DNA of 32,000 nt from Anaerolineae bacterium (GTDB lineage: Bacteria > Chloroflexota > Anaerolineae > CG2-30-64-16): the NCBI GenBank assembly GCA_034433275.1, contig DAOUAT010000463.1:1090-33089 (forward strand), written 5' to 3'. Numbering within the stretch: position 1 is the stretch's first letter; every line of letters begins with the position of its first letter. Shown here piece after piece: positions 8,711 through 27,240 of the stretch. The position numbers were made by a program, and so were the translations under genes. The notes under the pieces were generated by a model. The model was not told where the DNA came from. It did not search any database and worked only from the letters and a program-made list of their open reading frames with translations.

Positions 8711-8711
8711 G

Positions 8712-9482: not shown

Positions 9483-9505
9483 CCTTCCCCCCACAGCCGC
9501 TTTGT

Positions 9506-9976
9506 TCAGCCCTTGCGCACCACGCGCAGTCGCCGGTCCACGCCCCTCAGCAGATTGATCCACGACGACGTGCCCGGGAGCTGCCAGTTGACGGGCGGCT
9601 GCTCGGTCAACAGCTCCTGGCCCCAAATCGTCATCTTCTGGCTGCGCTCATAGGCATCCACCCAGACGCAGCGCATCTCCGGCTTGACCTCGCAGTGGCC
9701 GTTCAGGCGCACGCCACCGCACGGCCCGTTGCGCAGGTTCTTGGGACAGGTCATCGGGCAGGTCATGCCGGTGTAGTGCAGGATGCACTGGCCGCACAGG
9801 CGACAGTCGAAGACCGCCTTCTTGCTCAGATCCTCGAAAGGCAGGATCACCTTCGCAACGCGGTCGTAGCCGACGCGGGCAAAGAACGGATTCAGCCGGT
9901 GCAACACCCACTCGGCAGCCTGCCACAGGCGTTCGAGGGCGTGTGGATGATCTTGAATGATGCGGCGGAGGCCCAT
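9506..9976 (-). CDS. Short MetV-like protein (methylene-THF reductase C-terminal zinc-ribbon-like domain only)
   Basis: The start is taken at ATG 9974..9976, 2 nt after the hdrCB stop. ...FDCRLCGQCILHYTGMTCPMTCPKNLRNGPCGGVRLNGHCEV...CVW... parallels ...CQACGDCILDLTGGICPIARCSKQLLNGPCGGSQKGKCEV...CAW... in MetV (12541..13218). Confidence 0.7.
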   Translation of the reverse strand: MGLRRIIQDHPHALERLWQAAEWVLHRLNPFFARVGYDRVAKVILPFEDLSKKAVFDCRLCGQCILHYTGMTCPMTCPKNLRNGPCGGVRLNGHCEVKPEMRCVWVDAYERSQKMTIWGQELLTEQPPVNWQLPGTSSWINLLRGVDRRLRVVRKG

Positions 9977-9978
9977 TC

Positions 9979-11403
9979 CTAATCCACCAGCCCCTTCTGG
10001 CGCAACGCCGGCCGCGGGTCCACCAGGTTCTTCTCCAGGAGCGCCGTTTTCTCCCCCAACCCGAAGGCCAGCGCTGCAAGCTGCGTTGCATACAGCACCG
10101 GCATGGCGAAGCCCAGATCTTTGATCTGTGCCTGGCGGCCGTCCAGGTTGACGTGGCACAACGGACAAACGGTGACAACCACATCCGCGCCGCGCTCCCT
10201 GGCATTGCGCAGCACCTTGGCCGTCATCTGATGGGCCAACGGGGTTTGAGTCAGGCCCAAGGATCCGCCGCAACAATCGGTCTTGTAGTCCCACATCACC
10301 GGCTCGGCGCCGAGCCGACGCATCAGGTAGTCCATGTCCATGGGATACTCCGGATGCTCGGCGCCGGTGATCTCAGCCGGCCGGGTGATGTAGCAGCCGT
10401 AATAGCAGGCCACCTTCAGTCCGCTCAACGGTTTTTCCACCGCCCTCTCGATCCGATCCAACCCCGCCTTTTCGACTAGCGTCTCCACCAGGTGCATGAC
10501 CCGCACCTTGCCCGCATACTGGTAACCGATCTCCTGGGTGATCTGCTGCGCCATCTCTGGGTTGTGGGCCATCTCGTGGGCCGCGGTTTTGAAGCGGCTA
10601 TAGCAGGCAGCGCAGGGCGTGGTGACCTCCTCCAGGCCCATCTGCTCGATGATGGAGAGGTTGACCACCGGATACCTGGTTGCCAGGACGCGGTCGGTGG
10701 AGTGCGCCGGGCTGGAGCCACAGCAGATCCAGCCGGGCGGCTCAATCAGCTCCAGGTCGAGCTTCTCGGCGATGGCTTCGATGGTGCGGTGGTATTCGCT
10801 GGCCGACGAATGAAGCGAACAGCCGGGGTAGTAGGCAACCCGGGTGGGCGCAGCTTCCACCGCCTTAACCTGCCCGGGCTTAGGCGGCCGGGTGGGCAGC
10901 GAGACCAGATGCAACTTGCCCCGCTTGAGCATCTCCACCGCCATGTCCATATCTTTGAACAGGTTGCGGTTGAGCAGGTTCAAGCCGGCCATCAGCCCGA
11001 CTTCGTGGAGGCGGCCCATCAGCTTCACATCCATCAAGAAAAGGCGTGCGAAGCGATCCACCTCGGGGACGGCGGCCGGGATGCCCCGGCGACGGGCTTC
11101 GATGCGCAGCGCATCCATGACGGCCGCTATGTCAATGCCCTGGGGACAGCGCGTGGTACACGTCTCACACGAGGCGCACAGCCAGATGGCCTTGCTCTCC
11201 AGCACCGAAGCGTCTCCTAACTGCACGCTGCGCATCACCTGGTTGGGGGTCAAATCGAAATACTCGGCCAGGGGACAGCCGCTGGTGCACTTCAGGCACT
11301 GATAGCACAAGTAGGCGTTCTCGCCGACGATGCGCTGGATCGCCGCGGCCAAAGGTTCGGCTGTGGCCGGCGATGCAGCGGTGGTTGCTTTCATTATAGG
11401 CAT
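9979..11403 (-). CDS. Heterodisulfide reductase-like iron-sulfur protein, HdrC-HdrB fusion (HdrD-like): 2x[4Fe-4S] domain plus two CCG domains
   Basis: The start is taken at ATG 11401..11403, with GAGG 7 nt upstream. CYQCLKCTSGCP and CASCETCTTRCP are the ferredoxin motifs. YYPGCSLHSS...WICCGSSP and CYYGCYITRP...TDCCGGSLG are the two CCG domains. Confidence 0.85.
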   Translation of the reverse strand: MPIMKATTAASPATAEPLAAAIQRIVGENAYLCYQCLKCTSGCPLAEYFDLTPNQVMRSVQLGDASVLESKAIWLCASCETCTTRCPQGIDIAAVMDALRIEARRRGIPAAVPEVDRFARLFLMDVKLMGRLHEVGLMAGLNLLNRNLFKDMDMAVEMLKRGKLHLVSLPTRPPKPGQVKAVEAAPTRVAYYPGCSLHSSASEYHRTIEAIAEKLDLELIEPPGWICCGSSPAHSTDRVLATRYPVVNLSIIEQMGLEEVTTPCAACYSRFKTAAHEMAHNPEMAQQITQEIGYQYAGKVRVMHLVETLVEKAGLDRIERAVEKPLSGLKVACYYGCYITRPAEITGAEHPEYPMDMDYLMRRLGAEPVMWDYKTDCCGGSLGLTQTPLAHQMTAKVLRNARERGADVVVTVCPLCHVNLDGRQAQIKDLGFAMPVLYATQLAALAFGLGEKTALLEKNLVDPRPALRQKGLVD

Positions 11404-11446
11404 GTCATACCTCGTAATCAGCGGCAAGGAGACCTAACCCCCCCAA

Positions 11447-11540: not shown

Positions 11541-12527
11541 TTAATCCACCACCGGCCGCGGCAAGAGGCCAGCCCCCTCGACAAGCGGCTTCACAGCTTC
11601 TTCCCACTCGATGGCCATGATGTGGATGCCGGCGACACCGGGGATCTCCCGGATCTGCTGAATCTGCTCGATGCAGATCTTGATGCCGGCATCGCGCCAG
11701 GCGGCCGCGCGCGCTTTCTTATCTTCTTTGGGAATGTTAGCAACGGCCGCTTCCATGCGATCCACGTATTCGTCGGCGACGATCATGCCCGGCACCTGGT
11801 CGCGCATGTATTTGGCCGCGCCGCTGCTCTTAAGCGGCCCCACGCCGGCCAGGATCTTCACTTTCTCGTGTATGCCCAGGTCCACGACCCGCTTCATGTA
11901 CTCCCGGAAGCGCGGGATGTCGTAGATCAGCTGTGTCTGGATGAAGTCCGCGCCCGCGGCAGCTTTCTTGGCCAGACGGTAGGGTCGGAACTCGAACGGG
12001 TCGCCGAAGGGATTGGCCGCCGCGCCGATGAAAAAGCGCGGGCCGCCGCCTTTGATCTCCTCGCCGCACTGGAATTTGCCTTCATCGCGCAGGCCCTTGA
12101 CGATTTGTACGAGCTGCAGCGAGTCCACGTCGTGGACGTTTTTGGCGAAGGGATGGTTGCCGAATGACTGATGATCGCCGGTCAGGCAGAGCACGTTTTT
12201 GATCCCCAGCGCACTCGCACCCAGCAGGTCGGCCTGCATGGCCAGCCGGTTGCGATCGCGGCAGGTCATCTGAATGATCGGCTCCAGCCCTGCGCGCAAC
12301 ACCAACACGCCGGCCGCAATGCTGCTCATGCGGACGATGGCCGTCTGGTTGTCAGTCAGGTTAACCGCGTCCACGACCCCCTTGAGCAAGGCCGCTTTCT
12401 TGCGGATGACCTCGGCATCATGGCTCTTGGGCGGCCCCAACTCGCCGGTGACCGCGAAGCATCCTTTGGTCAACACGCGCTCCAGGTTGCTGCCCGCCCA
12501 ATAACCGTTCGTTGAAATGTCAGACAT
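11541..12527 (-). CDS. metF: Methylenetetrahydrofolate reductase, acetogen-type small MetF (copy 1)
   Basis: The start is taken at ATG 12525..12527, preceded by AAGGAGG. MSDISTNGYWAGSNLERVLTKGCFAVTGELGPPKSHD...VNLTDNQTAIVRMSSI...QMTCRDRNRLAMQADLLGASALGIKNVLCLTGDH...FIQTQLIYD.... Confidence 0.9.
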   Translation of the reverse strand: MSDISTNGYWAGSNLERVLTKGCFAVTGELGPPKSHDAEVIRKKAALLKGVVDAVNLTDNQTAIVRMSSIAAGVLVLRAGLEPIIQMTCRDRNRLAMQADLLGASALGIKNVLCLTGDHQSFGNHPFAKNVHDVDSLQLVQIVKGLRDEGKFQCGEEIKGGGPRFFIGAAANPFGDPFEFRPYRLAKKAAAGADFIQTQLIYDIPRFREYMKRVVDLGIHEKVKILAGVGPLKSSGAAKYMRDQVPGMIVADEYVDRMEAAVANIPKEDKKARAAAWRDAGIKICIEQIQQIREIPGVAGIHIMAIEWEEAVKPLVEGAGLLPRPVVD

Positions 12528-12540
12528 AGCCAGGTCCTCC

Positions 12541-13218
12541 TTATTCTTCCGCCAACCGCAAATCGTCCCGCACAATCCGGCGCGGGCCACCATCACGGCT
12601 GGTACGCCAGTCTTTGGACGGCTGAACTTGCAGCAAACGATCGAGCATCCCCAGCGCGCCCATCCGCTCCCAGATCAACTGCCAGGCGCAAGGGGTTTCC
12701 TCGCTCACCTCGCACTTGCCCTTTTGCGAGCCGCCGCACGGCCCGTTGAGCAGCTGTTTCGAGCAGCGTGCAATGGGGCAGATGCCGCCGGTCAGGTCGA
12801 GGATGCAGTCGCCGCAGGCCTGGCAGCGCTCCTCCCAGATGCCCTGCTCGGTGGGCAGGCCCATGAAGCGGGTATTCAGGCCGGGCAACACACGCTTGTC
12901 GGGGAAACGCTCAGCCAACGTCTGCACGCCGACACCACAGCCCAAGGAGAGGATGGCGTCGTAATTGGCCCACCGCTCGCGCAAGGGATCAATGTACTCC
13001 CACTCGCATTGGCGTTGAACGGTCACCTCGTCCATCGCGATCCCGTGGCCGTCCAGCCGGGTGGCCATGCGCAGCGCCGATGCCAGGATGCCGACCTCCT
13101 TTTCGCCGCCCGCCAGGCAGACGGTGACGCAGGTGCCGCAGCCCACCACAAGCACCTTTTGGTAGCTTTCGAGCATCTCTTTGATTTCGGCCAGCGGTTT
13201 TTGTTCAGCAACAATCAT
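12541..13218 (-). CDS. metV: MetV (methylene-THF reductase-associated zinc/iron-sulfur subunit)
   Basis: 225 aa. N-terminal VLVVGCGTCVTVCLAGGEKEV, and C-terminal CQACGDCILDLTGGICPIARCSKQLLNGPCGG. Its ATG overlaps the mvhD1 stop (ATGA at 13215..13218). Confidence 0.85.
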   Translation of the reverse strand: MIVAEQKPLAEIKEMLESYQKVLVVGCGTCVTVCLAGGEKEVGILASALRMATRLDGHGIAMDEVTVQRQCEWEYIDPLRERWANYDAILSLGCGVGVQTLAERFPDKRVLPGLNTRFMGLPTEQGIWEERCQACGDCILDLTGGICPIARCSKQLLNGPCGGSQKGKCEVSEETPCAWQLIWERMGALGMLDRLLQVQPSKDWRTSRDGGPRRIVRDDLRLAEE

Positions 13219-13670
13219 TCCTCACCTCCGACGGTATCTTTCTTCGCAAAGTGCCGACCCAACGGATTAGGTCCGAGTTTCCGAATGTGCGCGTCCATCT
13301 CGGTTGCAATCTCGGCGAAACGCGCGCCCATGGCCGCTGACAGGTTGACCATCTGGACGCGTTCGGCCCCCAAACCGATCTGGTTCAGCAGGTCACGCAC
13401 GTACTCGATGCGTTTTTTGGCTTGCAGATTACCTTCCAGGTAATGGCACTCTCCGGGCAGTCAGCCAGCGGCAAAGACGCCGTCGGCGCCCGCCTCGAAG
13501 GCGTGCAACACGTGCAGCACGTCGAGCTTGCCGGTGCAGGGCAGCTCGAAAACCTTCACCGAAGACGGGTATTGGATGCGCAGGCCACCTGCGAGATCGG
13601 CTGCCGCATAGGCACAATGATGGCAGCAAAAGGCAATGATGCGCGGCGTCCAGCCAACGTCTTCGCTCAT
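13215..13670 (-). CDS. mvhD: MvhD-like protein (methyl-viologen-reducing hydrogenase delta subunit family) with in-frame TGA at 13461..13463: predicted selenocysteine
   Basis: Track ORFs 13461..13670 and 13215..13400 are in the same frame (456 nt in total). Read-through gives ...LHAFEAGADGVFAAG-[TGA]-LPGECHYLEGNLQAKKRIEYVRDLLNQIGLGAERVQMVNLSAAMGARFAEIATEMDAHIRKLGPNPL.... This aligns residue-for-residue with the paralogue (18587..19021) ...LDAFEHGADGVYIVG-C-PIGNCHHVRGNERARKRIERAKKLLDEIGIGGQRLEIYFVSGGMGETFARVAREMTDRIQALGPNPL. Confidence 0.8.
13423..13448 (-). promoter_or_regulatory. Candidate bacterial SECIS stem-loop downstream of the mvhD1 UGA
   Basis: On the mRNA: UGA-N16-AUUACC-UGGAA-GGUAAU, a 6-bp stem (13444..13439 / 13433..13428). 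It is extendable by UGC/GCA across a small internal loop. The apical loop contains GG and lies about 26-30 nt from the UGA. Folded by eye. Confidence 0.45.
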
Positions 13671-16600
13671 TGCAATACCTCCTCGAACAGGACGTCAATC
13701 TTCGCCAGGACCTGCGCGTCGGTATAGTGCATCAGTTGAATGGCCCGGGCCGGGCAGGCCGCCGCACACGAGCCACAACCGTGACAAAGGGCCGCCTCGA
13801 TCTGCGCGGCGCCCACGATGCCGCCAACGCCGGTGAGCGACGCCACTACGCGCGGGGCATCATAAGGGCAGGTGCGCACGCAGGTCAAGCAGGCCACGCA
13901 GCGCGCGTCATCCACGACCGCCACGCGGCCGCCGACCTCAAGGGTATCCTTGGAAAGGAGCGTGGCCGCGCGCGCTGCGGCCGCCTGGGCCTGGACGATG
14001 CTCTCCGCCAACAGCTTGGGATAGTGCGCCAGGCCTGCCATAAAGATGCCCTCGGAGGAGAAATCCACCGGCCGCAGCTTGACGTGCGCCTCCAGGAAGA
14101 ACCCCTCCATATCCACCGAGACCTTCAGCCGCTTGCTCAATTCGCGCGCACCTTCGCTGGGCACCACCGACATGCTCAACACCAACAGATCGGGCCGCAA
14201 GACCATCTCACGGCCCAGGGGCGGCTCCCAAACTCGCACCTCGAGGCCGGTAGATTGATCAGCCGGTAAATTCAGTAGATCACGATTTCGATGCTCCAAG
14301 CCGGTCTGCCCGCCCTGGCTACGCCACGCGGGCCAGGGTGACCAGCGGTTGAGGGTCACAGACCCCCTCTGAGCCTGAATCTGTGCTCCACTGACATTCA
14401 TAGACTGGGCGCCAGACAATGTGTTGTGCATCGCAGATCCCTGGGCGGCGATTGTCACCTGGGGCTTACGATCGAAGTCGTAGCGCACAAAGCGCACTCC
14501 GGCCCGCCGCGCCTCGGTATACAACCGTTCCTTGAACCCATAGGTGCGGATGTCCCGATAGAGCACCGTGATCTCCGCGGCGGGGTTAAGCCGTTTGAGC
14601 ATCAGCGCGTTCTTCAGCGCCGTGGTGCAGCAGATGCGGGCACAGTATTGCTCGGCCGGGCCAACACACTGGATCATGACAACGGATGACGGGTGCTGGG
14701 TATCCGGTATTGGGGAATGCTCAATACCTGATGCCCGATTTGCCAGCCACGCCTCGAACTCTTGCTGCGTTAGAATCCTCGGGTCGCTCCCATACCCGTA
14801 CTCGTTCCCGCGATACTCCTGGCCGCCGGTAGCGACGATCGTTGCGCCGTGGTACACCTCGAAACGGCGGAAGGTGGCGCCCAGGTCCTGTTGCAGGACC
14901 GACGTGAAATTGCCCTGAACCCCGCCAGTCTCCACCAGCTCTGTCTGCAGATGGAGGTTGATCAACGGATGGGATTCGACGCGATGGATCAGGCTGGTCA
15001 GGTACTCATGAACATTGGATATCTGGCATTGGGTATAAGAACCAACATCCACTACCGACTGCCCAAGACCATGTTCCAACCCCAAGTCGCGCAGCGTGTA
15101 GTGCACCTTGCGCAGGTTGCCCCCCAATTCCCTGCTCCGCTCCGCCAGGTGCACCGGGAAGCCCTGTTCGGCCAGGGTGAGGGCAGCCGTCATGCCCGCC
15201 GCGCCGCCGCCGATGACCAGGACGCTCTTGCAGGTCGTCAGCGGCGTCGTGTGCAGCGGCTGGAGCCGGGCCGCGCGCGCAACGGCCATGCGCACCAGCT
15301 CCTTGGCTTTGGCTGTGGCTGTCGGCCGGTCGTCGGAGTGTACCCAGGAGCACTGGTTACGAATATTGGCCATCTCGAATAGATACGGGTTCAGCCCGGC
15401 CGCCCGGATGCTGCTCTGGAACAGCGGCTCATGGGTCAGCGGCGTGCACGACGCGACGACGACTCGATTGGCCCCTAACTCCTTCACTTTCTCGGTGATG
15501 TGTATAATGCTGTCCTGCGAGCAGGTATAGAGATTGTGCTCGGCATGGATGACGTGGGGCAGCGAACGAGCATATTCGGCCACCGCGGGCACATCCAGAA
15601 AGCCGGCGATGTTCGATCCGCAGTGGCAGACGAAAACAGTTACCCGCGGCTCCTCATGGGTTACATCGCGCTCCGGCGGGTATTCCGGCACACGGGTCAG
15701 CGTGCCGCGCGCACGCGCCAGCAATGCGCCAGCCGCGGCCGCCGCGCCGCTCGCCTCCACCACCGATTCGGGGATATCCTTGGGTTCGCGGAACGGGCCG
15801 ACCGCGTAAATGCCGGGCTTGCTGGTCTGCAATGGATCGAACAGAACAGTGTGGCAAAAGCCATAATCATCCAACTCAATGCCCAGTCGCTGCCCCAACT
15901 CCCGCACCTCGGGGGCGACCTCCATGCCAACGGAAAGGACGACCAGGTCGAATTCTTCCTGACGAATAGGCGAGTGGGCGAATGGCGGATCTATCTCCTG
16001 CTGATGCGCTGGTTCGTCCACGTAGCGCAAGATCAAATTGCCGTTGGCCGGGTTCTCTTTGAGCGCCGAAATGCGACAACGGGTGTACTTGATGCCGTAT
16101 TTCTCAATCGCCCGCCGATAATAGGGCTCATAGCCTTTGCTGAAAGCGCGCATGTCCATCATGAAGACATGAACTTCCGTGTCCCGCTCGTGTTCGATGG
16201 CCATGATGGCCTGTTTGGTGGCGTACATGCAGCAAACGGCCGAGCAGTAATCGTGCGACCGGTCGCGCGAGCCGATGCACTGCAAGAACGCGATCTTCCG
16301 CGGTCGGCGACCATCTGACGGCCGCTTCACATGTCCCATGGTGGGACCGGAGGCGCTCATCAGGCGTTCCAGTTGCAACGCGGTGATCGCGTTGGGATAG
16401 CGGCCCCAGCCGAACTCCTCTGCAAGCTCGGCCCGATAGACCTGATAGCCCGGGGCCAGGATGACCGCGCCGACGTTGAACTCGCAGGTGCGTTCGACCA
16501 TATCATGGTCAACCGCGCCCACGCCACACTTGTACCAGCAGCTCAAACACTCGGAGCAGATGCCGCAGGCCAGACAACGGGCAGCCTCGGCCTGGGCCAG

Positions 16601-18553
16601 CTCGGCCGTATAGCCCATCTCAACTTCAGCAAAGCCCTTGACCCGCTGCTCCGGCGGCAGTTCGGGCATGGGCACGCGCGGGGTGATCTTGAGCTCCCCA
16701 CGCTGGATGCGCTCGGCGAGCTCGGCCTGGGTCAGCTTGACCACCGGGAGTTCGGGTTTCGGCTTGGGCTCCAACGCTTCTCCGCGCAGGTAGCGGTGGA
16801 TGGACTCGGCGCACTTATGGCCGCTGGCGACCGCCTCGATCACAAACGCGGTACCGCTCACGCTGTCGCCAGCCGCAAAGACGCCGGGCCGGGTGGCCGC
16901 GAAAGTGTTGGGGTTTATCGCAATGGTGCGTTTGGCGGTCAGCCCCACCCCGGCGTCGGCCGGGATAAACGCCAAACCGGCCCGCTGGCCCACAGAGAAG
17001 ATCACCACGTCGGCCGGCAGCACGTGCTCTGAGCCGGGTACCGTCTCGACCGAGAGCCGGCCCTGGTCATCGAACTCGAAATGCGCTACGCGACGGCACT
17101 CGACACCGCCGGCCCGGCCATTGCTGCCTTCAACCACGCGTACGAAGGTGCGATCGTTGTGAATGACGATCCCCTCATCCAGCGCGGCCTGCACCTCCCA
17201 GGCATGCGCGGGCATGTTCTCGCGGCCTTCCAGGCATGCCATCTGCACCTCGGCCGCGCCCAGGCGGACGGCGGTACGCGCCACATCAATCGCCACGTTG
17301 CCGCCGCCCAGCACCAGCACCCGCTTTCCCTGTATCTGCGATCGGGGATCAGCGCCGACTGATTTACTGAACGCGTCGCCGCCCTGTAGGACTCGCTGAT
17401 TCGCTGATTCGTCCCTCAGCTCGGCCAGCCGCACGTCGCGCAGGAATTGGGTATTGATCAGCACGCCTTCAAGGTTGTTGCCGGGAATCGGCAGGCGAAC
17501 GCCTTCGTGTGCGCCAACCGCAATGAGCACGGCCTTGTAACCCGCATTGAAGAGATCGTCCAGGTTGACAATGGTGGTGTTGAGGCGCAGCTCAACCCCC
17601 AGGTCAACGATATCCTGCACCTCGCGATCCACGATCCAACCTGGCAGGCGATATTCGGGCACGCCGACGCGCAACATGCCGCCCGCCACCGGCAACGCCT
17701 CGAAAACCGTCATCGGGTAGCCCAGCAGGGCCAGGTCTTGTGCCGCGGTCAGGCCACATGGCCCCGCGCCGATGATCGCCACCCGCTCTTCGTACTGCTT
17801 GGGGACAGGGTCACGGGGCACGCGCGGCTGCGCGTATATCGTGTCAGTGACGAAGCGCTTGAGCGCATGGATGTTGACCTGGTCATCCACTTTGCCGCGG
17901 TTGCAGGCATCCTCGCAGCGATGGTTGCAGATGCGGCCACAGATGCCGGGGAAGGGGTTGTCCTCCTTGATCACGCGCAGGGCATCGTCGAAGCGGCCCT
18001 CGCGGATCAGCGCGATATAGCCTTGCGCGCGCTGGTGCGCCGGACAGGCATCGCGACAGGGCGCGATCCCCCGCTTCTCGATGACGTAGGCATTGGGAAT
18101 AGCTTGCGGGTAGAGCTTATGGGCGGCGCGTTGTTGCTTCAGGCCTTCATCGAAATGGGAGGGGATCACCACCGGGCAGACCTGGGCACATTCGCTGCAG
18201 CCGGTGCACTTCGCCACGTCAATGTAGCGCGGCCGCGTGCGCACGATCACGGTAAAATTGCCTGCCGTGCCCCGCAGGCCAGTGACATCGCTGTCTGTCA
18301 GGATTTCGATGTTAAGGTGCCGGCCCGTCTCGACCAGCTTAGGCGAGATGGTGCACATTGCGCAGTCGTTGGTGGGGAAGGTCTTGTCCAGTTGCGCCAT
18401 ATGGCCGCCGATGGCCGACTTGTGTTCCACCAGGTAGACTTTGTAACCGGCCTCAGCCAGGTCAAGGCTGGCCTGCATCCCCGCGATGCCGCCCCCAACG
18501 ACCATCACCGCCCCGATGACGTTTTCTGAAGCGTCGCGACCGTTGCCAGCCAT
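13667..18553 (-). CDS. hdrA: Giant HdrA-family flavo-iron-sulfur protein (1628 aa): HdrA FAD module interrupted by an NfnB/GltD-like NAD(P)H:FAD module, then a second complete HdrA-like unit ('HdrL-like')
   Basis: VMVVGGGIAGMQASLDLAEAGYKVYLVEHKSAIGGHMAQLDKTFPTNDCAMC is the HdrA FAD domain, and CTGCSECAQVCP is a ferredoxin motif. CRDACPAHQRAQGYIALIREGRFDDALRVIKEDNPFPGICGRICNHRCEDACNRG, RVAIIGAGPCGLTAA, KRVLVLGGGNVAIDVA and GVFAAGD form the GltD/NfnB-like part (about 16778..18073). FLQCIGSRDRSHDYCSAVCCMYATK follows. VFVCHCGSNIAG...VVVASCTPLTHEPLF...ANIRNQCSWVH corresponds to the N-terminal domain of canonical HdrA. Then KSVLVIGGGAAGMTAALTLAEQG and MIQCVGPAEQYCARICCTTALK. The C-terminus has CVACLTCVRTCP and CHGCGSCAAACP. 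Its stop overlaps the mvhD1 ATG (ATGA). Confidence 0.85.
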   Translation of the reverse strand: MAGNGRDASENVIGAVMVVGGGIAGMQASLDLAEAGYKVYLVEHKSAIGGHMAQLDKTFPTNDCAMCTISPKLVETGRHLNIEILTDSDVTGLRGTAGNFTVIVRTRPRYIDVAKCTGCSECAQVCPVVIPSHFDEGLKQQRAAHKLYPQAIPNAYVIEKRGIAPCRDACPAHQRAQGYIALIREGRFDDALRVIKEDNPFPGICGRICNHRCEDACNRGKVDDQVNIHALKRFVTDTIYAQPRVPRDPVPKQYEERVAIIGAGPCGLTAAQDLALLGYPMTVFEALPVAGGMLRVGVPEYRLPGWIVDREVQDIVDLGVELRLNTTIVNLDDLFNAGYKAVLIAVGAHEGVRLPIPGNNLEGVLINTQFLRDVRLAELRDESANQRVLQGGDAFSKSVGADPRSQIQGKRVLVLGGGNVAIDVARTAVRLGAAEVQMACLEGRENMPAHAWEVQAALDEGIVIHNDRTFVRVVEGSNGRAGGVECRRVAHFEFDDQGRLSVETVPGSEHVLPADVVIFSVGQRAGLAFIPADAGVGLTAKRTIAINPNTFAATRPGVFAAGDSVSGTAFVIEAVASGHKCAESIHRYLRGEALEPKPKPELPVVKLTQAELAERIQRGELKITPRVPMPELPPEQRVKGFAEVEMGYTAELAQAEAARCLACGICSECLSCWYKCGVGAVDHDMVERTCEFNVGAVILAPGYQVYRAELAEEFGWGRYPNAITALQLERLMSASGPTMGHVKRPSDGRRPRKIAFLQCIGSRDRSHDYCSAVCCMYATKQAIMAIEHERDTEVHVFMMDMRAFSKGYEPYYRRAIEKYGIKYTRCRISALKENPANGNLILRYVDEPAHQQEIDPPFAHSPIRQEEFDLVVLSVGMEVAPEVRELGQRLGIELDDYGFCHTVLFDPLQTSKPGIYAVGPFREPKDIPESVVEASGAAAAAGALLARARGTLTRVPEYPPERDVTHEEPRVTVFVCHCGSNIAGFLDVPAVAEYARSLPHVIHAEHNLYTCSQDSIIHITEKVKELGANRVVVASCTPLTHEPLFQSSIRAAGLNPYLFEMANIRNQCSWVHSDDRPTATAKAKELVRMAVARAARLQPLHTTPLTTCKSVLVIGGGAAGMTAALTLAEQGFPVHLAERSRELGGNLRKVHYTLRDLGLEHGLGQSVVDVGSYTQCQISNVHEYLTSLIHRVESHPLINLHLQTELVETGGVQGNFTSVLQQDLGATFRRFEVYHGATIVATGGQEYRGNEYGYGSDPRILTQQEFEAWLANRASGIEHSPIPDTQHPSSVVMIQCVGPAEQYCARICCTTALKNALMLKRLNPAAEITVLYRDIRTYGFKERLYTEARRAGVRFVRYDFDRKPQVTIAAQGSAMHNTLSGAQSMNVSGAQIQAQRGSVTLNRWSPWPAWRSQGGQTGLEHRNRDLLNLPADQSTGLEVRVWEPPLGREMVLRPDLLVLSMSVVPSEGARELSKRLKVSVDMEGFFLEAHVKLRPVDFSSEGIFMAGLAHYPKLLAESIVQAQAAAARAATLLSKDTLEVGGRVAVVDDARCVACLTCVRTCPYDAPRVVASLTGVGGIVGAAQIEAALCHGCGSCAAACPARAIQLMHYTDAQVLAKIDVLFEEVLQ

Positions 18554-18586
18554 ATCTACCTCCCGAACGGCGGCACGTCTCCTTGC

Positions 18587-19021
18587 CTAGGTAGATTTTC
18601 GTAGCGGATTCGGGCCCAGTGCCTGAATCCGGTCGGTCATCTCGCGCGCCACGCGCGCAAACGTCTCTCCCATGCCGCCGGAAACGAAGTATATCTCCAA
18701 CCGTTGGCCGCCGATCCCGATCTCGTCCAACAATTTCTTCGCCCGTTCGATGCGCTTCCTGGCCCGCTCGTTGCCTCGCACGTGATGACAGTTGCCGATG
18801 GGACAGCCGACGATGTAAACACCATCCGCGCCGTGTTCAAAGGCGTCCAGGATGTACTTGACATCGGCCTTGCCGGTGCAAGGCATCTTCACCAGCTTGA
18901 CGTTGGCCGGATATTGGATGTGCAACGCACCCGCCGTGTCGGCCGACATGTCGGCGCAATAGATGCACAGGAACGCCGTGATCTCGGGCTCGAAACCGTT
19001 GCTACTGTTATCGCTCATCAT
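18587..19021 (-). CDS. mvhD: MvhD-like protein (Cys form)
   Basis: 144 aa. ...ITAFLCIYCADMSADTAGALHIQYPANVKLVKMPCTGKADVKYILDAFEHGADGVYIVGCPIGNCHH.... Confidence 0.9.
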   Translation of the reverse strand: MMSDNSSNGFEPEITAFLCIYCADMSADTAGALHIQYPANVKLVKMPCTGKADVKYILDAFEHGADGVYIVGCPIGNCHHVRGNERARKRIERAKKLLDEIGIGGQRLEIYFVSGGMGETFARVAREMTDRIQALGPNPLRKST

Positions 19022-19079
19022 TCCCCATCCTGAAGGATCCGCTCGTCACACAGTACGCAATGGGCAGCACATGCACGTC

Positions 19080-22000
19080 TTACACCGCCCACGCGCCGGT
19101 CAACTCGCCCGCCAATTGGACATCCAGATAGGCCATGAGCTGGATGGCTTTCGCCGGACATTCGGCCGTGCAGGTGCCGCAGCCCTGACACAATGCCGGC
19201 TCGATATATGCCGCGCCCACGATCTCGCCCACACCGGTCATGTCCGGCCGGATCTGGGGAATGTCGAAGGGGCAGGTGCGCACGCAGGTCAGACAACCGA
19301 CGCACTTGCTCTGATCCACCACCGCGATCGGGCCGCCGTAGTACATAGGCTCCTTGGAGAGCAGTGTGATGGCCCGACCGGCGGCTGCCTGCGCGTTGGT
19401 GATCGCCTCCTCGATAAACTTGGGATAGTGGGCCATGCCGGCCATGAAGATCCCTTCTTCCATGAAGTCCATAGGCCGCATCTTCAGGTGCGCTTCCTGG
19501 AAGAATCCCTCGACCGACAACGGCACATCCAGAATCTGCGCCAGCTCTTCGGTGCCTGGCGCAGGAACGACCGCCATGCTCAGGGCGACCAGACCGGGCG
19601 ACAGGATCATCTCGCGACCGAAAACCTGTTCCCAAGCCCGCACCTCGAGCTTGCCGTCGGCCGCACGGCTTACCTGGGGCAGATGATGCTCGTCATAGCG
19701 CATGAAGACCACACCCCGGCGTCGCGCCTCCGTGTAGAACTGTTCCCGGAAGCCGTAGGTGATCATATCCTTGTAAAGCACATACACCTGACAGTCCGGG
19801 TTGAGCATCTTGACCCGGATGGTGTTCTTCATGGTGTTGGTGCAGCACACCCGGCTGCAATAGTCCGTTTCTGACGGCGGGTGGACGCACTGGATCATCA
19901 CCACCTGCTTGAGTTGCGTGATTTCCTCTGGACGGTGGACGATGATCTCCTCTAGATCGAGCTGGGTTACCACCCGGGGGTCCTGGCCCAGCAGATAGAC
20001 ATCCCCGCGCCATTCCTCGCCGCCGGTAGCTACAATGGTAACGGCATGACGCACCTCGGTCTCGGCATCCACAGGCCCGGCATGAGTGACAATCACTGCT
20101 TGAAAGTCGCCCGTACGGCCGGTGTGCGATTGCACTTCGGAACGCGTCAGCACCTGAATGCGCTCATGGCCGCGCACCCGGTTGACCAGGTCGCGCAGCA
20201 GGCGCTGGGGGTTTTGCCCTTCGGCCACGTAGAAGATATGGCGCAGGTTGCCGCCCAACTGGGCACTGCGCTCCACCAGCGTCACATCGAAACCCGCGTC
20301 GGCAATGGAGAGCGCGGCCTGCATCCCCGCCACACCGCCGCCGATGACCAGCGCCCGGCGCGTCGGCGTTATGCTGAGCTTCTGGATCGGCTGCGCCATG
20401 AAAGCGCGTTCGACCGCCATGCGCACCGTCTCGCGGGCTTTGCGCGTCGCGAGCTCCGGCTGGCTCTCGTGCACCCACGCGCACTGCTCGCGGATGTTGG
20501 CCATCGTCAACAGATACGGGTTCAGCCCAGCCTGGCGGATGACCTTCTGGAAAAGCGGTTCGTGCGTGCGCGCCGTGCATCCCGCAACCACAACCCGGTT
20601 GAGATTCTGCTCGACGATGGCCTGGCGAATGCGTTGCAGATCGGCCCCCTGGCAACCGTAAGCGAGCAACTCGGCATGGGTCACGCCCGGCAACCGTAAG
20701 GCGAACTCCTGGACGGCCCGGGTGTCAATCGTGCCATCAATGGCCGGCTCACAGCGGCAGATGAACACCCCTATCCGCGGCGGCTCATGGCTCACATCCC
20801 TTTCCTCCGGATATTCGTTAGCCGCAGAAAGGAATGGATATTGACGGCTGGAGGGGCTGCTGCCTACCTGGCCTCGCAACAGGCGCATCACCTCGGCGGC
20901 CGCGCCGGAAGCATCCAGGAAAGTCTCGGAGATCTCCTTGGGCGACAGGAAAGTGCCACAGACATACACCCCCGGCACACTGGTTTCCAGCGGCGCGAAC
21001 TTGTCGGTTTGACAGAAGCCGTATGGGTTCAGCTCGATGCCCAGCTCGCCGGCCAGCTCCCTAGCCGAACGCGGGGGCACCGTGCCGAGCGAAAGCACCA
21101 CCAGATCGAACCGCTCCGTGACCATCTGGCCATTGGGGCCGGGATAGTGCAAGATCAGATCCTGAGTAGCGGGGTCTTCTTTGACGTACGAGATGCGCGC
21201 CCGGGTGTACTCCACCCCGAACCGGCGCCGCGCCGACTCGTAGTAGGCGTTGAACTCCTTATTGAACGCCCGCTCATCCATCATGAAGATCTGTGCGTGG
21301 ACGCCGGGCAGGCGCTCTTTGGCAATCATCGCCTCTTTGGTGGCATACATGCAGCAGATAGACGAGCAGTAGGGGTGCTTCTGATCGCGCGAGCCAACGC
21401 ACTGCAGCCAGGCGATCCGCCGCGGACGCTGTCCGTCCGAGGGCCGCAGCACCACCCCCTCCGTGGGCCCCGAACGACTCGCCAGCCGCTCATACTGCAT
21501 GGAGTGGATGATGTTACGATAGCGGCCGAAACCGAGCTCTTCGTACTCATGGGCATCAGTCAACTCGTAGCCCAACGCCATGATGATCGCGCCAACGTGA
21601 ACCTGCGATTCGCGAGCTTCTTCCTTCAGGTCTATACATTGTGTGGGACACACAGTCGCACAACATCCACAATCGTCGCAATAGGGGCCGCGATCAATGA
21701 TGTAGGCATTGGGGATCGAGCGAACGGCCGGTTTATAGGCTGCCTTGCGCGTGGCCAGCTCCTGTTGAAAGCTGCTGGGCAGCGTCACCGGGCACACCAG
21801 CGAACAGAGGTCACAGTTGATGCAGCGCGCCGGGTCCACATAGCGCGGCTCATGGCGCAGAGTCACGTGAAAGTCGCCAGCCTGCCCGGTCACGCCGATG
21901 ACATTAGTCAGGGTCAGCACATGGATGTTCGGGTGCAGGTTGTGATCCTGGAAGGCGGGGGAGATAGCAGGCCGTGTGCAGCCGTAGCCGTGATCCGAGG

Positions 22001-22214
22001 TGCCGCGACACAGCACACAGTCGTGGGTGGGAAACATATAGCCCAATTGAGCCACGCGACCACCCAGGGCCGGCGCGGTCTCGACCAGCCATGCCTGCAG
22101 GCCAGCTTCGGCTAGATCCACAGCCGCCCGCATGCCAGCAACGCCACCGCCGATGACCATCACGTCGCCGGTCCTGCCTTGTGCGCTCACCTGAGAGAGT
22201 GGTAATTCAGTCAT
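19080..22214 (-). CDS. hdrA: HdrA-family flavo-iron-sulfur protein with two HdrA-type modules in one polypeptide (1044 aa), no NfnB-like insert
   Basis: VMVIGGGVAGMRAAVDLAEAG...DCVLC, then CINCDLCSLVCP, CDDCGCCATVCP and WLQCVGSRDQKHPYCSSICCMYATKEA. VFICRCEPAIDG...VVVAGCTARTHEPLF...ANIREQCAWVH follows. Then ALVIGGGVAGMQAALSIADAGF and MIQCVHPPSETDYCSRVCCTNTMK. The C-terminus has CVGCLTCVRTCP and CQGCGTCTAECP. Confidence 0.85.
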   Translation of the reverse strand: MTELPLSQVSAQGRTGDVMVIGGGVAGMRAAVDLAEAGLQAWLVETAPALGGRVAQLGYMFPTHDCVLCRGTSDHGYGCTRPAISPAFQDHNLHPNIHVLTLTNVIGVTGQAGDFHVTLRHEPRYVDPARCINCDLCSLVCPVTLPSSFQQELATRKAAYKPAVRSIPNAYIIDRGPYCDDCGCCATVCPTQCIDLKEEARESQVHVGAIIMALGYELTDAHEYEELGFGRYRNIIHSMQYERLASRSGPTEGVVLRPSDGQRPRRIAWLQCVGSRDQKHPYCSSICCMYATKEAMIAKERLPGVHAQIFMMDERAFNKEFNAYYESARRRFGVEYTRARISYVKEDPATQDLILHYPGPNGQMVTERFDLVVLSLGTVPPRSARELAGELGIELNPYGFCQTDKFAPLETSVPGVYVCGTFLSPKEISETFLDASGAAAEVMRLLRGQVGSSPSSRQYPFLSAANEYPEERDVSHEPPRIGVFICRCEPAIDGTIDTRAVQEFALRLPGVTHAELLAYGCQGADLQRIRQAIVEQNLNRVVVAGCTARTHEPLFQKVIRQAGLNPYLLTMANIREQCAWVHESQPELATRKARETVRMAVERAFMAQPIQKLSITPTRRALVIGGGVAGMQAALSIADAGFDVTLVERSAQLGGNLRHIFYVAEGQNPQRLLRDLVNRVRGHERIQVLTRSEVQSHTGRTGDFQAVIVTHAGPVDAETEVRHAVTIVATGGEEWRGDVYLLGQDPRVVTQLDLEEIIVHRPEEITQLKQVVMIQCVHPPSETDYCSRVCCTNTMKNTIRVKMLNPDCQVYVLYKDMITYGFREQFYTEARRRGVVFMRYDEHHLPQVSRAADGKLEVRAWEQVFGREMILSPGLVALSMAVVPAPGTEELAQILDVPLSVEGFFQEAHLKMRPMDFMEEGIFMAGMAHYPKFIEEAITNAQAAAGRAITLLSKEPMYYGGPIAVVDQSKCVGCLTCVRTCPFDIPQIRPDMTGVGEIVGAAYIEPALCQGCGTCTAECPAKAIQLMAYLDVQLAGELTGAWAV

Positions 22215-23363: not shown

Positions 23364-23441
23364 TGACGAATGACGAATGACGGATGACGAAGGACGAAGC
23401 TGCCCTTTGGCGTTTCGTCCTTCGTCGTCGGTCCTTCGTCA
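23364..23441. repeat. Heptad inverted-repeat element (TGACGAA-type units x5, spacer, reverse-complement units x4)
   Basis: TGACGAA TGACGAA TGACGGA TGACGAA GGACGAA (23364..23398), a 15-nt spacer, then TTCGTCC TTCGTCG TCGGTCC TTCGTCA (23414..23441). The perfect 13-bp core stem is 23386..23398 / 23414..23426. The right arm overlaps the stop codon of the TrxR-like gene. Confidence 0.6.
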
Positions 23442-26886: not shown

Positions 26887-27240
26887 TCAGTCGGCAAACT
26901 CGATTTGTAGCTCTCGTAGATTGATGATCGCTCCGGTTTGGGTCAGAAAGTCCATGCCCAAGATGCCGTTGATCTCGAAGCCGTAGTCCATACCGCCGAC
27001 TTCGATGTCGAAATCAAACAGCTTGCGGTTGTCAACCTGCAAATAGTCTACCTGGCGACTGTAAACGAATTCCGTACCGCCGATACCGCCGATGGCATGG
27101 ATCATGTCCGTTGGTGCCTGCGTTAATCCGATGGAGGCCACCGCATCCGCTGCCAGGATGGTGCTGGCTGAACCGATGTCCACTAAAATATCGCTGATCG
27201 TAATGGATGTATCACAACAGGCAATGCCTAACGCCTCCAC
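26887..27240 (-). CDS. Small retropepsin-like (clan AA) aspartyl protease domain protein with an atypical active-site triplet
   Basis: 117 aa with a GTG start. ...ISDILVDIGSASTILA... where the family has xxDTGAS, ...IGGIGG..., and the C-terminal ...NGILGMDFL... flap/dimerisation motif. A 100-nt sample is about 52% GC, against about 65% in the adjacent acsE-like gene. Confidence 0.5.
   Translation of the reverse strand: MEALGIACCDTSITISDILVDIGSASTILAADAVASIGLTQAPTDMIHAIGGIGGTEFVYSRQVDYLQVDNRKLFDFDIEVGGMDYGFEINGILGMDFLTQTGAIINLRELQIEFAD

What the first reader, a model, noticed from the sequence alone, without database searches (positions are those of the whole stretch)
13667..18553. 1628-aa HdrA with an embedded NfnB/GltD-like NAD(P)H-FAD-[4Fe-4S] module
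The first HdrA FAD domain runs GGGIAGMQASLDLAEAG ... MAQLDKTFPTNDCAMC ... CTGCSECAQVCP. It is then interrupted by about 430 aa (roughly 16778..18073) carrying the hallmark motifs of the glutamate synthase small subunit / NfnB:
- CRDACPAHQRAQGYIALI..G.FD.AL.VI...NPFPGICGRICNHRCEDACNRG
- GAGPCGLTAA
- LGGGNVAIDVA
- GVFAAGD

The HdrA fold then resumes (FLQCIGSRD...CSAVCCMYATK) and is followed by a complete second HdrA-like unit.

I recall large HdrA/NfnB fusions being called HdrL in sulfate-reducer genome papers, with no settled function. This one is immediately translationally coupled to a Sec-MvhD and MetVF, which suggests a direct physiological role.
Basis: partly seen in the sequence, partly recalled or inferred. 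Interest (0 to 1): 0.65.

Follow-up and report, generated by a model that had tools for sequence, protein, structure and literature searches.

The report
NADH-linked HdrA of methylene-THF reductase
The 1628-residue gene is real. It is a Chloroflexota copy of the giant HdrA subunit, carrying a built-in NAD(P)H-flavin module, that is already known from the Moorella-type methylene-tetrahydrofolate reductase complex, so it is a correct annotation and not a discovery.

Summary
ORF 13667..18553 (-) encodes a 1628-aa protein in which an NfnB/GltD-like FAD/NAD(P)H/2x[4Fe-4S] module (residues ~162-665) lies inside the inserted-ferredoxin domain of an HdrA unit. A second HdrA unit follows.

It is not an assembly chimera. 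More than 120 protein clusters of 64-84% identity share the architecture. Full-length relatives were recovered in at least 597 stretches of species-representative genomes.

The two HdrA units are complementary halves of an HdrA dimer, not two complete copies.

The gene overlaps (ATGA) a selenocysteine MvhD gene, which overlaps metV. metF and a fused hdrCB follow, inside a Wood-Ljungdahl gene cluster.

This is the architecture published for Moorella thermoacetica HdrA (1487 aa; extra ferredoxin and TrxR-like domains interrupted by a GltD domain) in the HdrCBA-MvhD-MetVF reductase. It also matches HdrL of Desulfobacterium and the hdrA-mvhD-metVF cluster described in marine Anaerolineae.

Incremental points from this work:
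- The module is circularly permuted relative to NfnB.
- It carries an NADH-type "CLE" in place of the NADPH-type "YRR".
- HdrL-MvhD-MetV-MetF synteny recurs in 34 of 82 loci across many phyla.

Verdict: a new member of a known kind, of low interest.

The parts
13667..18553 (-). HdrL-type giant HdrA, 1628 aa: a fused HdrA heterodimer with an embedded NfnB/GltD-like module.
   Evidence: ORF and translation. Pfam and NCBIfam hits. PDB hits. 51-sequence alignment A1 with all Fe-S cysteines invariant. A GGGAGG Shine-Dalgarno sequence lies upstream of the ATG.
18071..18553 (-). Unit 1, residues 1-161: FAD-binding start of the TrxR-like domain (GGGIAGMQ), TNDC64xxC67 (the Cys197 equivalent), and the first ferredoxin motif C116-C119-C122-C126.
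   Evidence: Aligns to 5ODC_A residues 145-291. The residues are invariant in A1.
16559..18070 (-). Embedded NfnB/GltD-like module, residues 162-665. It holds the ligands of two [4Fe-4S] clusters (C166, C170, C205, C209, C213, C217, plus C660 and C663), an FAD site (GAGPCG) and an NAD(P)H site (GGGNVA).
   Evidence: Pfam Fer4_20 and Pyr_redox_2. phmmer to 9BOV_A 309 bits, 4YLF_B 266, 8OH5_C 264, 5JCA_L 248. Foldseek top hits are 9bov_A, 8oh5_C, 9n5u_A and 4ylf_B (TM 0.75 on the target). The module is absent from the paralog at 19080..22214.
16565..16681 (-). Displaced (circularly permuted) N-terminal segment of the NfnB fold, residues 625-663, ending in EAARC660LAC663. Cys666 of the HdrA ferredoxin motif follows three residues later.
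   Evidence: NfnB 4YLF_B residues 5-42 and 5JCA_L residues 5-47 align here, after the core that matches their residues 46-462. The order is colinear with 9BOV_A, 9N5U_A and 8OH5_C.
17228..17236 (-). C440-L441-E442 at the end of the second strand of the NAD(P)H Rossmann fold, where NADPH-dependent relatives have Y-R-R.
   Evidence: Alignments to 9BOV_A, 9N5U_A, 4YLF_B, 8OH5_C and 5JCA_L. At least 90% conserved in A1. Across 82 loci, YRR occurs in about 48 and CLE-like in about 25.
15674..16558 (-). Unit 1 continued, residues 666-960: second ferredoxin motif (C666, C669, C672, C676), rest of the TrxR-like domain with [4Fe-4S] ligands C759, C770, C774 and C775, and the E729/K780 signature. There is no C-terminal ferredoxin domain.
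   Evidence: Aligns to 5ODC_A residues 293-475, so E356 maps to E729 and K409 to K780. The residues are invariant in A1.
13670..15673 (-). Unit 2, residues 961-1628: HdrA N-terminal (MvhD-like) cluster domain, TrxR-like FAD domain (GGGAAG; C1296, C1304, C1308, C1309; E1267/K1314), and a C-terminal 2x[4Fe-4S] ferredoxin domain. It lacks the inserted ferredoxin domain and the Cys197 equivalent.
   Evidence: Alignment to 8RVU_a and 5ODC_A. Conservation in A1.
14246..14455 (-). Hypervariable low-complexity surface loop in unit 2 (residues ~1367-1436), longest in this window.
   Evidence: Absent from the paralog. The stretch between anchor residues 1355 and 1452 is 34-64 aa in 50 homologs and 98 aa here.
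13215..13670 (-). MvhD (FlpD family), 151 aa, with an in-frame UGA (13461..13463) read as selenocysteine at residue 70. Its ATG overlaps the HdrL stop codon (ATGA).
   Evidence: Sequence. Pfam FlpD 7e-47 with Cys substituted. The UGA aligns with Cys72 of the paralogous MvhD. The same UGA and an open frame occur in L002, where the gene was called as only 69 aa.
13423..13448 (-). Hairpin starting 12 nt after the UGA; a candidate SECIS element.
   Evidence: RNA fold (the energy is not better than shuffles, z 0.12). The hairpin core is identical in L002 while flanking synonymous sites differ. Rfam gave no hit.
12541..13218 (-). MetV (DUF5981/MTHFR_C family), 225 aa. Its ATG overlaps the MvhD stop codon (ATGA).
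   Evidence: PF12225, 6e-37.
11541..12527 (-). MetF (MTHFR), 328 aa, read from the ATG at 12527 behind an AAGGAGG Shine-Dalgarno sequence.
   Evidence: PF02219, 1.7e-35. The length matches the 328-aa gene in L002.
9979..11427 (-). Fused HdrC-HdrB (HdrD-like): two CxxCxxCxxxCP motifs and two intact CCG domains.
   Evidence: Pfam Fer4_17 and 2x CCG. Sequence. Found in the same position in L001, L002, L003, L007, L008, L011 and L082.
18587..19021 (-). Second MvhD, with Cys where the other has Sec; 52% identical to the Sec-MvhD.
19080..22214 (-). Paralogous 1044-aa fused double HdrA without the NfnB-like module. It is 44% identical to HdrL and has the same complementary layout.
   Evidence: The tandem arrangement is conserved in L002 and several other Chloroflexota loci.

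Best explanation
[quoted passage not shown] It is orthologous in architecture and gene context to M. thermoacetica HdrA in HdrCBA-MvhD-MetVF.

Shown by sequence: the polypeptide is a covalently fused, asymmetric HdrA dimer.
- Unit 1 supplies a TrxR-like FAD domain, the Cys197-type ligand and the inserted ferredoxin domain.
- A circularly permuted NfnB-like module is spliced between the two cluster motifs of the inserted ferredoxin domain. Its last cysteine ligand sits three residues before the first ligand of the HdrA cluster.

Inferred mechanism:
1. NADH (CLE instead of YRR) reduces the module's FAD.
2. Electrons pass one at a time through the module's two [4Fe-4S] clusters into the two ferredoxin-domain clusters, then to the composite N-terminal cluster, and so to an HdrA flavin.
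3. From the HdrA flavin they leave toward MvhD(Sec)-MetV-MetF, which reduces methylene-THF.
4. They also leave toward HdrCB or an external low-potential acceptor. Overall NADH oxidation is coupled by flavin-based bifurcation, or run in reverse as confurcation during methyl-THF oxidation.
For: Architecture:
- define the domain layout.
- All cluster ligands, both FAD motifs and both E/K 'bifurcating flavin' pairs (E729/K780, E1267/K1314) are conserved in 51 homologs.

Operon and coupling:
- ATGA overlaps link HdrL to MvhD and MvhD to MetV, and Shine-Dalgarno sequences are present.
- Pfam assigns the neighbours MvhD, MetV, MetF and HdrCB. FolD, AcsE-like, CooC-like and RACo genes lie upstream.

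Synteny:
- HdrL-MvhD-MetV-MetF is colinear in 34 of 82 loci from Chloroflexota, Desulfobacterota, Bacillota, Planctomycetota and others.

Literature:
- Moorella HdrA has the same domain order, three FAD sites, one NAD(P)H site and E/K in both TrxR domains. The complex oxidises NADH with benzyl viologen at 190 U/mg. In S. ovata the subunits interact with MetVF in pulldowns (PMC9430772).
- The Moorella complex reduces methylene-THF with reduced viologen (PMC5861303).
- The closest solved relative of the module is the non-bifurcating 'middle NfnB-like domain' of Bfu-type NfnA. That domain feeds a distant bifurcating flavin through Fe-S clusters.
Against: - No biochemistry exists for this protein.
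- Bifurcation has never been demonstrated for the Moorella or Sporomusa enzymes, and their second acceptor is unknown.
- The NADH module occupies the domain that is the ferredoxin exit in methanogen HdrA, so the direction of electron flow through it is an assumption.
- NADH preference rests on one motif. About two thirds of family members have YRR, including 18 that sit next to MetVF.
- 33 of 82 loci have HdrL-MvhD without MetVF, so the family is not dedicated to MetF.
- I could not compare directly with the Moorella sequence.
- The AlphaFold model was too poor at the Fe-S regions to check cluster-to-cluster distances.
Confidence: 0.6

Rival explanations
1. The same complex is a plain, non-bifurcating NADH:methylene-THF oxidoreductase. 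The HdrL Fe-S and flavin chain acts only as a wire from the NADH module to MetVF, functionally like RnfC2-MetVF of Acetobacterium woodii. HdrCB would be structural or vestigial.
For: - The NfnB-like module fills the domain where ferredoxin docks in methanogen HdrA.
- No co-reduction of ferredoxin or NAD(P)+ was seen with the Moorella or Sporomusa enzymes.
- NADH to methylene-THF is exergonic on its own (PMC5861303).
Against: - Both TrxR-like domains keep the E/K pair used to recognise bifurcating HdrA flavins (criterion quoted).
- Both CCG domains of HdrCB are intact.
- Keeping three flavins and about nine clusters for a simple wire is uneconomical.
Confidence: 0.22
2. HdrL-MvhD is a self-standing NAD(P)H-linked Hdr module serving another acceptor, for example a DsrC-like or other disulfide through HdrCB, or ferredoxin as a transhydrogenase-like enzyme. 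Its position next to metVF would reflect shared regulation, not a physical complex.
For: - 33 of 82 loci have HdrL-MvhD with no MetVF nearby.
- HdrL loci of D. autotrophicum and S. fumaroxidans sit next to dsrABC or hdrABC and have been linked to sulfate reduction.
- S. ovata MetVF purifies without the Hdr proteins.
Against: - Two successive ATGA overlaps join hdrL, mvhD and metV.
- The same order recurs in 34 loci across phyla.
- Moorella MetF co-purified with the Hdr subunits, and S. ovata pulldowns link HdrA and MvhD to MetF and MetV.
Confidence: 0.12
3. The embedded module is a true NfnB. Its FAD would be a second, NADPH-dependent bifurcation site, giving two bifurcating centres in one polypeptide, as proposed for the ANME-1 HdrA-NfnB fusions.
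For: - 36% identity and TM 0.75 to T. maritima NfnB.
- The proposal in PMC9012536.
- Most family members carry the NADPH-type YRR.
Against: - No NfnA/S-type partner (PyrK-like [2Fe-2S]/FAD protein) is encoded in the 32-kb window.
- This copy has CLE, not YRR.
- The topology and best scores match the non-bifurcating NfnB-like domain of Bfu-type NfnA and StnA.
Confidence: 0.05
4. The long ORF is an assembly chimera, or a fusion created by a sequencing error.
For: None beyond its unusual length.
Against: - More than 120 clusters of 1500-1650 aa at 64-84% identity come from independent assemblies.
- 80 full-length matches were found in species-representative genomes, including an isolate (Desulfotruncus arcticus DSM 17038).
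- The junction motifs are conserved in all of them.
Confidence: 0.01

Closest known systems
HdrA (Moth_1194) of the M. thermoacetica HdrCBA-MvhD-MetVF methylene-THF reductase (Hdr-type / type IV MTHFR)
   Same: [quoted passage not shown] It has three FAD sites, E/K pairs in both TrxR domains, and the same neighbours mvhD, metV and metF.
   Different: - 1628 aa here against 1487 aa in Moorella.
- hdrC and hdrB are fused and lie downstream of metF instead of upstream of hdrA.
- MvhD contains selenocysteine.
- An additional module-less double HdrA plus MvhD pair sits directly upstream.
HdrL1-3 of Desulfobacterium autotrophicum HRM2 (and HdrL of Syntrophobacter fumaroxidans)
   Same: A large HdrA/glutamate-synthase-type fusion followed by mvhD, with selenocysteine in some partners (PMC2702500). 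Full-length relatives of the window protein occur in many Desulfobacterota at 40-48% identity.
   Different: The published HdrL loci were discussed in connection with DsrABC or HdrABC and sulfate reduction, not MetVF. The original paper considered HdrL unique to that organism, which searches show is not so.
HdrA9-11 of ANME-1 archaea (HdrA with an NfnB-like insertion)
   Same: A ~500-aa NfnB-like insertion interrupts the inserted ferredoxin domain of HdrA (PMC9012536).
   Different: The ANME proteins are archaeal and are not reported next to metF. The same paper describes fused double HdrAs with complementary Cys197 and N-terminal domain as a separate group, whereas the window protein combines both features.
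Middle NfnB-like domain of Bfu-type NfnA (9BOV_A, 9N5U_A) and of StnA (8OH5_C)
   Same: These are the best sequence and fold matches for the module. The alignment is colinear, including the EAxRCLxCG segment that follows the FAD/NAD core. In these proteins too the domain is nested inside a larger Fe-S protein and feeds a remote flavin.
   Different: Those proteins carry YRR and use NADPH. Their host is a formate-dehydrogenase-like subunit of a NuoEF-type complex, not HdrA.
NfnB / NfnL, large subunit of NfnSL transhydrogenase (4YLF_B, 5JCA_L), and GltD
   Same: Same fold (TM 0.73-0.75 on the target), the same two [4Fe-4S] clusters, and FAD and NAD(P)H sites.
   Different: - Circularly permuted: NfnB residues 5-42 follow residues 46-462.
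- No NfnA/S or GltB partner gene is present.
- CLE replaces YRR.
- GltD itself scores much lower (176 bits against 266-309 bits).
Methanogen HdrA (5ODC_A, 8RVU_a)
   Same: All four HdrA domains, the FAD site, cluster ligands, Cys197 and E356/K409 equivalents are present.
   Different: These features are spread over two fused, non-identical units instead of a homodimer. There is no hydrogenase or formate dehydrogenase partner. The ferredoxin-binding domain carries the NAD(P)H module.

Membership tests
HdrA subunit of Hdr-type MTHFR (Moorella type, as described in PMC9430772) | [quoted passage not shown] | tested here: met
   Residues 961-1628 align to 8RVU_a residues 5-222, 325-462 and 476-655. 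Nothing matches the region between ~222 and 325.
HdrA subunit of Hdr-type MTHFR (Moorella type, as described in PMC9430772) | N-terminal part is an extra ferredoxin domain and an extra TrxR-like domain, interrupted by a GltD domain binding [4Fe-4S], FAD and NAD(P)H. | tested here: met
   Residues 15-161 and 666-846 align to 5ODC_A residues 145-291 and 293-475. Residues 162-665 match GltD/NfnB models.
HdrA subunit of Hdr-type MTHFR (Moorella type, as described in PMC9430772) | E/K pair (E356/K409 of methanogen HdrA) present in both TrxR-like domains. | tested here: met
   E729/K780 and E1267/K1314 were mapped through. They are invariant or at least 90% conserved in 51 homologs.
HdrA subunit of Hdr-type MTHFR (Moorella type, as described in PMC9430772) | Encoded in one unit with mvhD, metV, metF and hdrB/hdrC. 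| tested here: met
   hdrL-mvhD-metV-metF-hdrCB lie on one strand with two ATGA overlaps. The gene order differs from Moorella hdrCBA-mvhD-metVF.
HdrA subunit of Hdr-type MTHFR (Moorella type, as described in PMC9430772) | Complex formation with MetVF, NADH:viologen activity and viologen:methylene-THF activity. | not testable with these tools
   Needs protein biochemistry.
HdrA subunit of Hdr-type MTHFR (Moorella type, as described in PMC9430772) | Sequence orthology to Moth_1194. | not tested
The paper PMC4135698 is not held.
HdrL (Strittmatter et al. 2009) | Large HdrA / glutamate-synthase-type fusion with an NADH-binding region, followed by an mvhD gene. | tested here: met
   definition in PMC2702500.
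Methanogen-type HdrA (5ODC) | One polypeptide carries the N-terminal domain, TrxR domain, inserted ferredoxin domain, C-terminal ferredoxin domain and Cys197, and forms a symmetric homodimer. | tested here: not met
   The features are split in a complementary way between two fused units.
NfnB / NfnL of NfnSL transhydrogenase | Two [4Fe-4S] clusters, FAD and NAD(P)H Rossmann motifs. | tested here: met
   C166, C170, C205, C209, C213, C217, C660, C663, GAGPCG and GGGNVA are all invariant.
NfnB / NfnL of NfnSL transhydrogenase | Linear topology, with the EAxRCLxC segment at the N-terminus. | tested here: not met
   This segment lies at residues 625-663, after the core.
NfnB / NfnL of NfnSL transhydrogenase | Partner NfnA/S (PyrK-like [2Fe-2S]/FAD subunit) encoded alongside. 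| tested here: not met
   No such Pfam family was found among the 27 ORFs scanned in the window.
NfnB / NfnL of NfnSL transhydrogenase | NADPH-type Y-R-R after the second Rossmann strand. | tested here: not met
   C-L-E in the window.
Selenocysteine-containing MvhD | In-frame UGA at a conserved Cys position, with the reading frame continuing to full length. | tested here: met
   The UGA at 13461..13463 aligns to Cys72 of the paralog. The same UGA occurs in L002.
Selenocysteine-containing MvhD | Bacterial SECIS hairpin just downstream of the UGA. | tested here: inconclusive
   A hairpin lies 12 nt downstream and is identical in L002. Its folding energy is no better than shuffles, and no covariation is available.

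The most novel reading that the evidence does not exclude
The module-bearing HdrL-MvhD(Sec) and the module-less double HdrA-MvhD(Cys) encoded in tandem might assemble with MetVF and HdrCB into one machine. That machine would have five flavins and two successive bifurcation steps, comparable to what is proposed for the Geobacter benzoyl-CoA reductase complex. NADH would enter through a permuted NfnB-like domain at what is the ferredoxin exit in methanogens. This would identify the long-sought second acceptor route of Hdr-type methylene-THF reductases.
Probability: 0.1. Interest if true: 0.6.

Novelty: new member of a known kind. Interest (0 to 1): 0.25.

Why it matters
Methylene-THF reduction is the most exergonic step of the Wood-Ljungdahl pathway. 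Whether and how Hdr-type reductases conserve that energy is still open, because the second acceptor of the Moorella enzyme is unknown.

This window adds no new principle. It does show three things:
- The Moorella-type giant HdrA and its mvhD-metVF partners are widespread well beyond acetogens. They occur in Anaerolineae, many Desulfobacterota, Bacillota and others.
- The family splits into NADH-type and NADPH-type nucleotide sites.
- The NAD(P)H module is a permuted NfnB fold wired directly into the ferredoxin domain.

These points are useful for choosing a source organism and for interpreting a future structure. No HdrL-type chain is in the PDB copy searched.

Tried and rejected
- AlphaFold2 of residues 1-960 with a 51-sequence alignment gave mean pLDDT 70.6 and pTM 0.49, with pLDDT below 50 in exactly the Fe-S regions (108-175, 664-685). 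It could not be used to measure cluster distances. It served only for a Foldseek search, which repeated the sequence result.
- From cofactor counts in a review table (2 FAD, 9 [4Fe-4S]) and a remark in PMC9012536, I first inferred that Moorella HdrA resembled the 1044-aa module-less paralog. PMC9430772 showed this was wrong: Moorella HdrA has the GltD domain.
- The 62-aa low-complexity stretch in unit 2 was examined as a possible foreign insertion. It is a hypervariable loop in all homologs.
- The Rfam gathering-threshold scan and the tRNA scan of the whole window found nothing.
- The SECIS hairpin has no statistical support from folding energy.
- The original Moorella paper (PMC4135698) is not held. 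Appel et al. 2021 and Pereira et al. 2011 could not be consulted.
- Cluster look-up gave only generic names and no taxon for the closest relative.
- A link between the CLE/YRR motif and MetVF context exists but is weak: 15 of 25 CLE-like loci against 18 of 48 YRR loci.

Full report
**Observation**

The minus-strand ORF 13667..18553 is the longest in the region.
- Pfam places Fer4_20 at residues 164-240 and Pyr_redox_2 at 257-578. FAD/NAD Rossmann hits start at residues 16 and 1111, and a 4Fe-4S dicluster domain lies at 1551-1604.
- NCBIfam gives HdrA2/HdrA models in five pieces (880 and 640 bits). It gives GltD/NfnB-type models over 154-696.
- Against the PDB, the best chains are methanogen HdrA (5ODC_A, 6e-177) and, for the middle part, NfnB-type chains.

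**Not an artefact**

A search of 5.8 billion proteins returned more than 120 clusters of 1500-1650 aa at 64-84% identity. Where named, they are Chloroflexota, Anaerolineae or Thermoflexia.

A scan of one genome per species found at least 597 stretches encoding relatives. The best 80 all cover residues ~10-1625. They come from Chloroflexota (52-65% identity) and, at 40-48% identity, from:
- Desulfobacterota;
- Acidobacteriota;
- Bacillota, including the isolate Desulfotruncus arcticus;
- Planctomycetota, Gemmatimonadota, SAR324 and others.

Both junctions of the insert are conserved in all of them.

**Anatomy**

HdrA of 5ODC aligns to the protein in four pieces:

| 5ODC residues | HdrA part | Window residues |
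|---|---|---|
| 2-139 | N-terminal cluster domain | 967-1104 |
| 145-291 | Start of the TrxR-like domain, first ferredoxin motif | 15-161 |
| 293-475 | Second ferredoxin motif, rest of the TrxR-like domain | 666-846 |
| 475-652 | End of the TrxR-like domain, C-terminal ferredoxin domain | 1443-1625 |

- Unit 1 (residues 1-960) has TNDC64xxC67, the equivalent of Cys197. It has no N-terminal domain and no C-terminal ferredoxin domain.
- Unit 2 (residues 961-1628) has both of those domains. It lacks the Cys197 motif and the inserted ferredoxin domain.

The protein is thus a fused, asymmetric HdrA dimer, not an HdrA followed by a complete second one.

The E356/K409 pair is quoted in PMC9430772 as the marker of bifurcating HdrA flavins. 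It is present in both units (E729/K780 and E1267/K1314) and is conserved.

**The insert**

Global alignment with the 1044-aa paralog at 19080..22214 shows that about 500 residues (162-665) are extra.

Relative to T. maritima NfnB, residues 46-462 match window residues 164-591. NfnB residues 5-42, ending in EAxRCLxC, match window residues 625-662, that is, after the core. P. furiosus NfnL behaves the same way. The module is therefore circularly permuted with respect to NfnB.

It is colinear with the 'middle NfnB-like domain' of Bfu-type NfnA (9BOV_A, 309 bits; 9N5U_A) and of StnA (8OH5_C). These are also the best fold matches.

The chain enters the module just before Cys166 and leaves just after Cys663. 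These positions lie in the same cluster-binding motif of NfnB. Cys666 of the HdrA ferredoxin motif follows three residues later. By inference, this places the module's outer cluster next to the ferredoxin-domain clusters.

All twelve cysteines involved are invariant in 51 homologs.

**Nucleotide site**

Five solved NADPH-dependent relatives have Y-R-R after the second strand of the NAD(P)H Rossmann fold. The window has C440-L441-E442, conserved in at least 90% of its close homologs.

By the general Rossmann-fold rule, an acidic residue at this position indicates NAD and arginines indicate NADP. On that basis I infer NADH.

Across 82 loci the family splits into about 48 YRR and about 25 CLE-like members.

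**Context**
- The HdrL stop overlaps the start (ATGA) of a 151-codon FlpD/MvhD gene. That gene has an in-frame UGA at codon 70.
- The UGA aligns with a Cys of the second MvhD in the window. It recurs in locus L002, where the gene caller stopped at 69 aa.
- A hairpin lies 12 nt downstream. It is identical in L002 but is not statistically supported.
- The MvhD stop overlaps the metV start. metF and a fused hdrCB with two intact CCG domains follow.
- Upstream lie the paralogous double HdrA and a Cys-MvhD. Beyond them are FolD, a TrxR-like flavoprotein, malic enzyme, an AcsE-like pterin-binding protein, a CooC-like ATPase and RACo.

HdrL-MvhD-MetV-MetF is colinear in 34 of 82 loci across several phyla. 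A further 33 loci have HdrL-MvhD only.

**What is known**
- HdrL was named in 2009 as an HdrA/glutamate-synthase fusion followed by mvhD, some with selenocysteine (PMC2702500).
- A ~500-aa NfnB-like insertion in the inserted ferredoxin domain, and fused HdrAs with complementary Cys197 and N-terminal domain, were described for ANME archaea (PMC9012536).
- The hdrA-mvhD-metVF cluster with fused hdrCB and two metVF sets was described for marine Anaerolineae (PMC5736913).
- Decisively, PMC9430772 describes M. thermoacetica HdrA of the HdrCBA-MvhD-MetVF reductase as 1487 aa with exactly this domain order. It has three FAD sites, one NAD(P)H site and E/K in both TrxR-like domains, and the enzyme has strong NADH:viologen activity.

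The window protein is therefore a Chloroflexota member of a described enzyme type.

**Mechanism**

Shown here: the cofactor-binding layout, the wiring implied by sequence adjacency, and the operon.

Inferred:
1. NADH reduces the module's FAD.
2. Electrons pass through four clusters and the composite N-terminal cluster to an HdrA flavin.
3. They then go on to MvhD-MetV-MetF, and to HdrCB or a low-potential acceptor.

This follows the bifurcating reaction proposed for Moorella. I give it 0.6.

The main rival is a plain non-bifurcating wire (0.22). The other rivals are independence from MetVF (0.12), a second NfnB-type bifurcation site (0.05) and an artefact (0.01).

**Verdict**

The finding is a correct and careful annotation of a known kind of protein. 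My additions are incremental:
- the permuted topology of the module;
- the CLE/YRR split;
- the breadth of the HdrL-MvhD-MetVF synteny;
- the tandem module-less paralog.

Interest is 0.25. Novelty: new member of a known kind.

**Dead ends**
- The AlphaFold model was poor at the Fe-S regions.
- Rfam and the tRNA scan found nothing.
- The original Moorella paper is not held.
- My interim guess that Moorella HdrA lacked the module was overturned.

Noticed in passing
window 18587..22214 (-): A second, module-less fused double HdrA (1044 aa, 44% identical to HdrL) with its own Cys-type MvhD lies directly upstream of HdrL. The tandem arrangement recurs in L002 and several other Chloroflexota loci. 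Whether the two sets form one complex or are alternatives is unknown.
   Followed up: partly
window 14246..14455 (-), HdrL residues ~1367-1436: A low-complexity stretch is absent from the paralog. It is a hypervariable surface loop whose length and sequence differ in almost every homolog (34-64 aa between anchor residues in 50 homologs, 98 aa here).
   Followed up: yes
window 7769..9805 (-): A second methylene-THF reductase set lies downstream of hdrCB. It comprises a short MetV-like C-terminal domain (tblastn hit 9581..9805, 43% to MetV), a GNAT acetyltransferase (8712..9626) and a second MetF (7769..8764, 55% to MetF). This matches the two non-identical metVF sets reported for marine Anaerolineae.
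   Followed up: partly
L002 9340..9893 versus window 18554..18586: In the closest relative (L002, GCA_900174595.1) a DUF4258/MqsA-like toxin-antitoxin pair is inserted between the Cys-MvhD and HdrL. The window has only a 33-nt spacer at that point.
   Followed up: no
window 26887..27240 (-): A 117-aa ORF with a retropepsin-like aspartyl protease domain (Asp_protease_2, 1.5e-07) sits between the HEAT-repeat gene and the AcsE-like gene. L002 has no gene at this position.
   Followed up: no
window 23439..24350 (-): A 303-aa thioredoxin-reductase-like flavoprotein (Pyr_redox_2) lies between folD and a malic enzyme gene and is conserved in L002. It may be a TrxR-type ferredoxin/NAD(P) reductase serving the same pathway.
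   Followed up: no
L001 6939..9990: In the 999-kb JGI contig, two MetV-MetF fusion genes (499 and 503 aa, DUF5981+MTHFR) precede HdrL, in addition to the separate metV and metF downstream.
   Followed up: no
loci L003-L082 (genome contigs): The HdrL family splits into an NADPH-type (YRR, about 48 loci) and an NADH-type (CLE-like, about 25 loci) nucleotide site. Both types occur next to MetVF (18 of 48 and 15 of 25).
   Followed up: partly
window 362..940 and 1584..2198 (-): A peroxiredoxin-glutaredoxin fusion fragment (AhpC-TSA + Glutaredoxin) and a DUF3786 protein flank an acyl-CoA dehydrogenase gene at the low-coordinate end of the window. DUF3786 is also present in L002.
   Followed up: no
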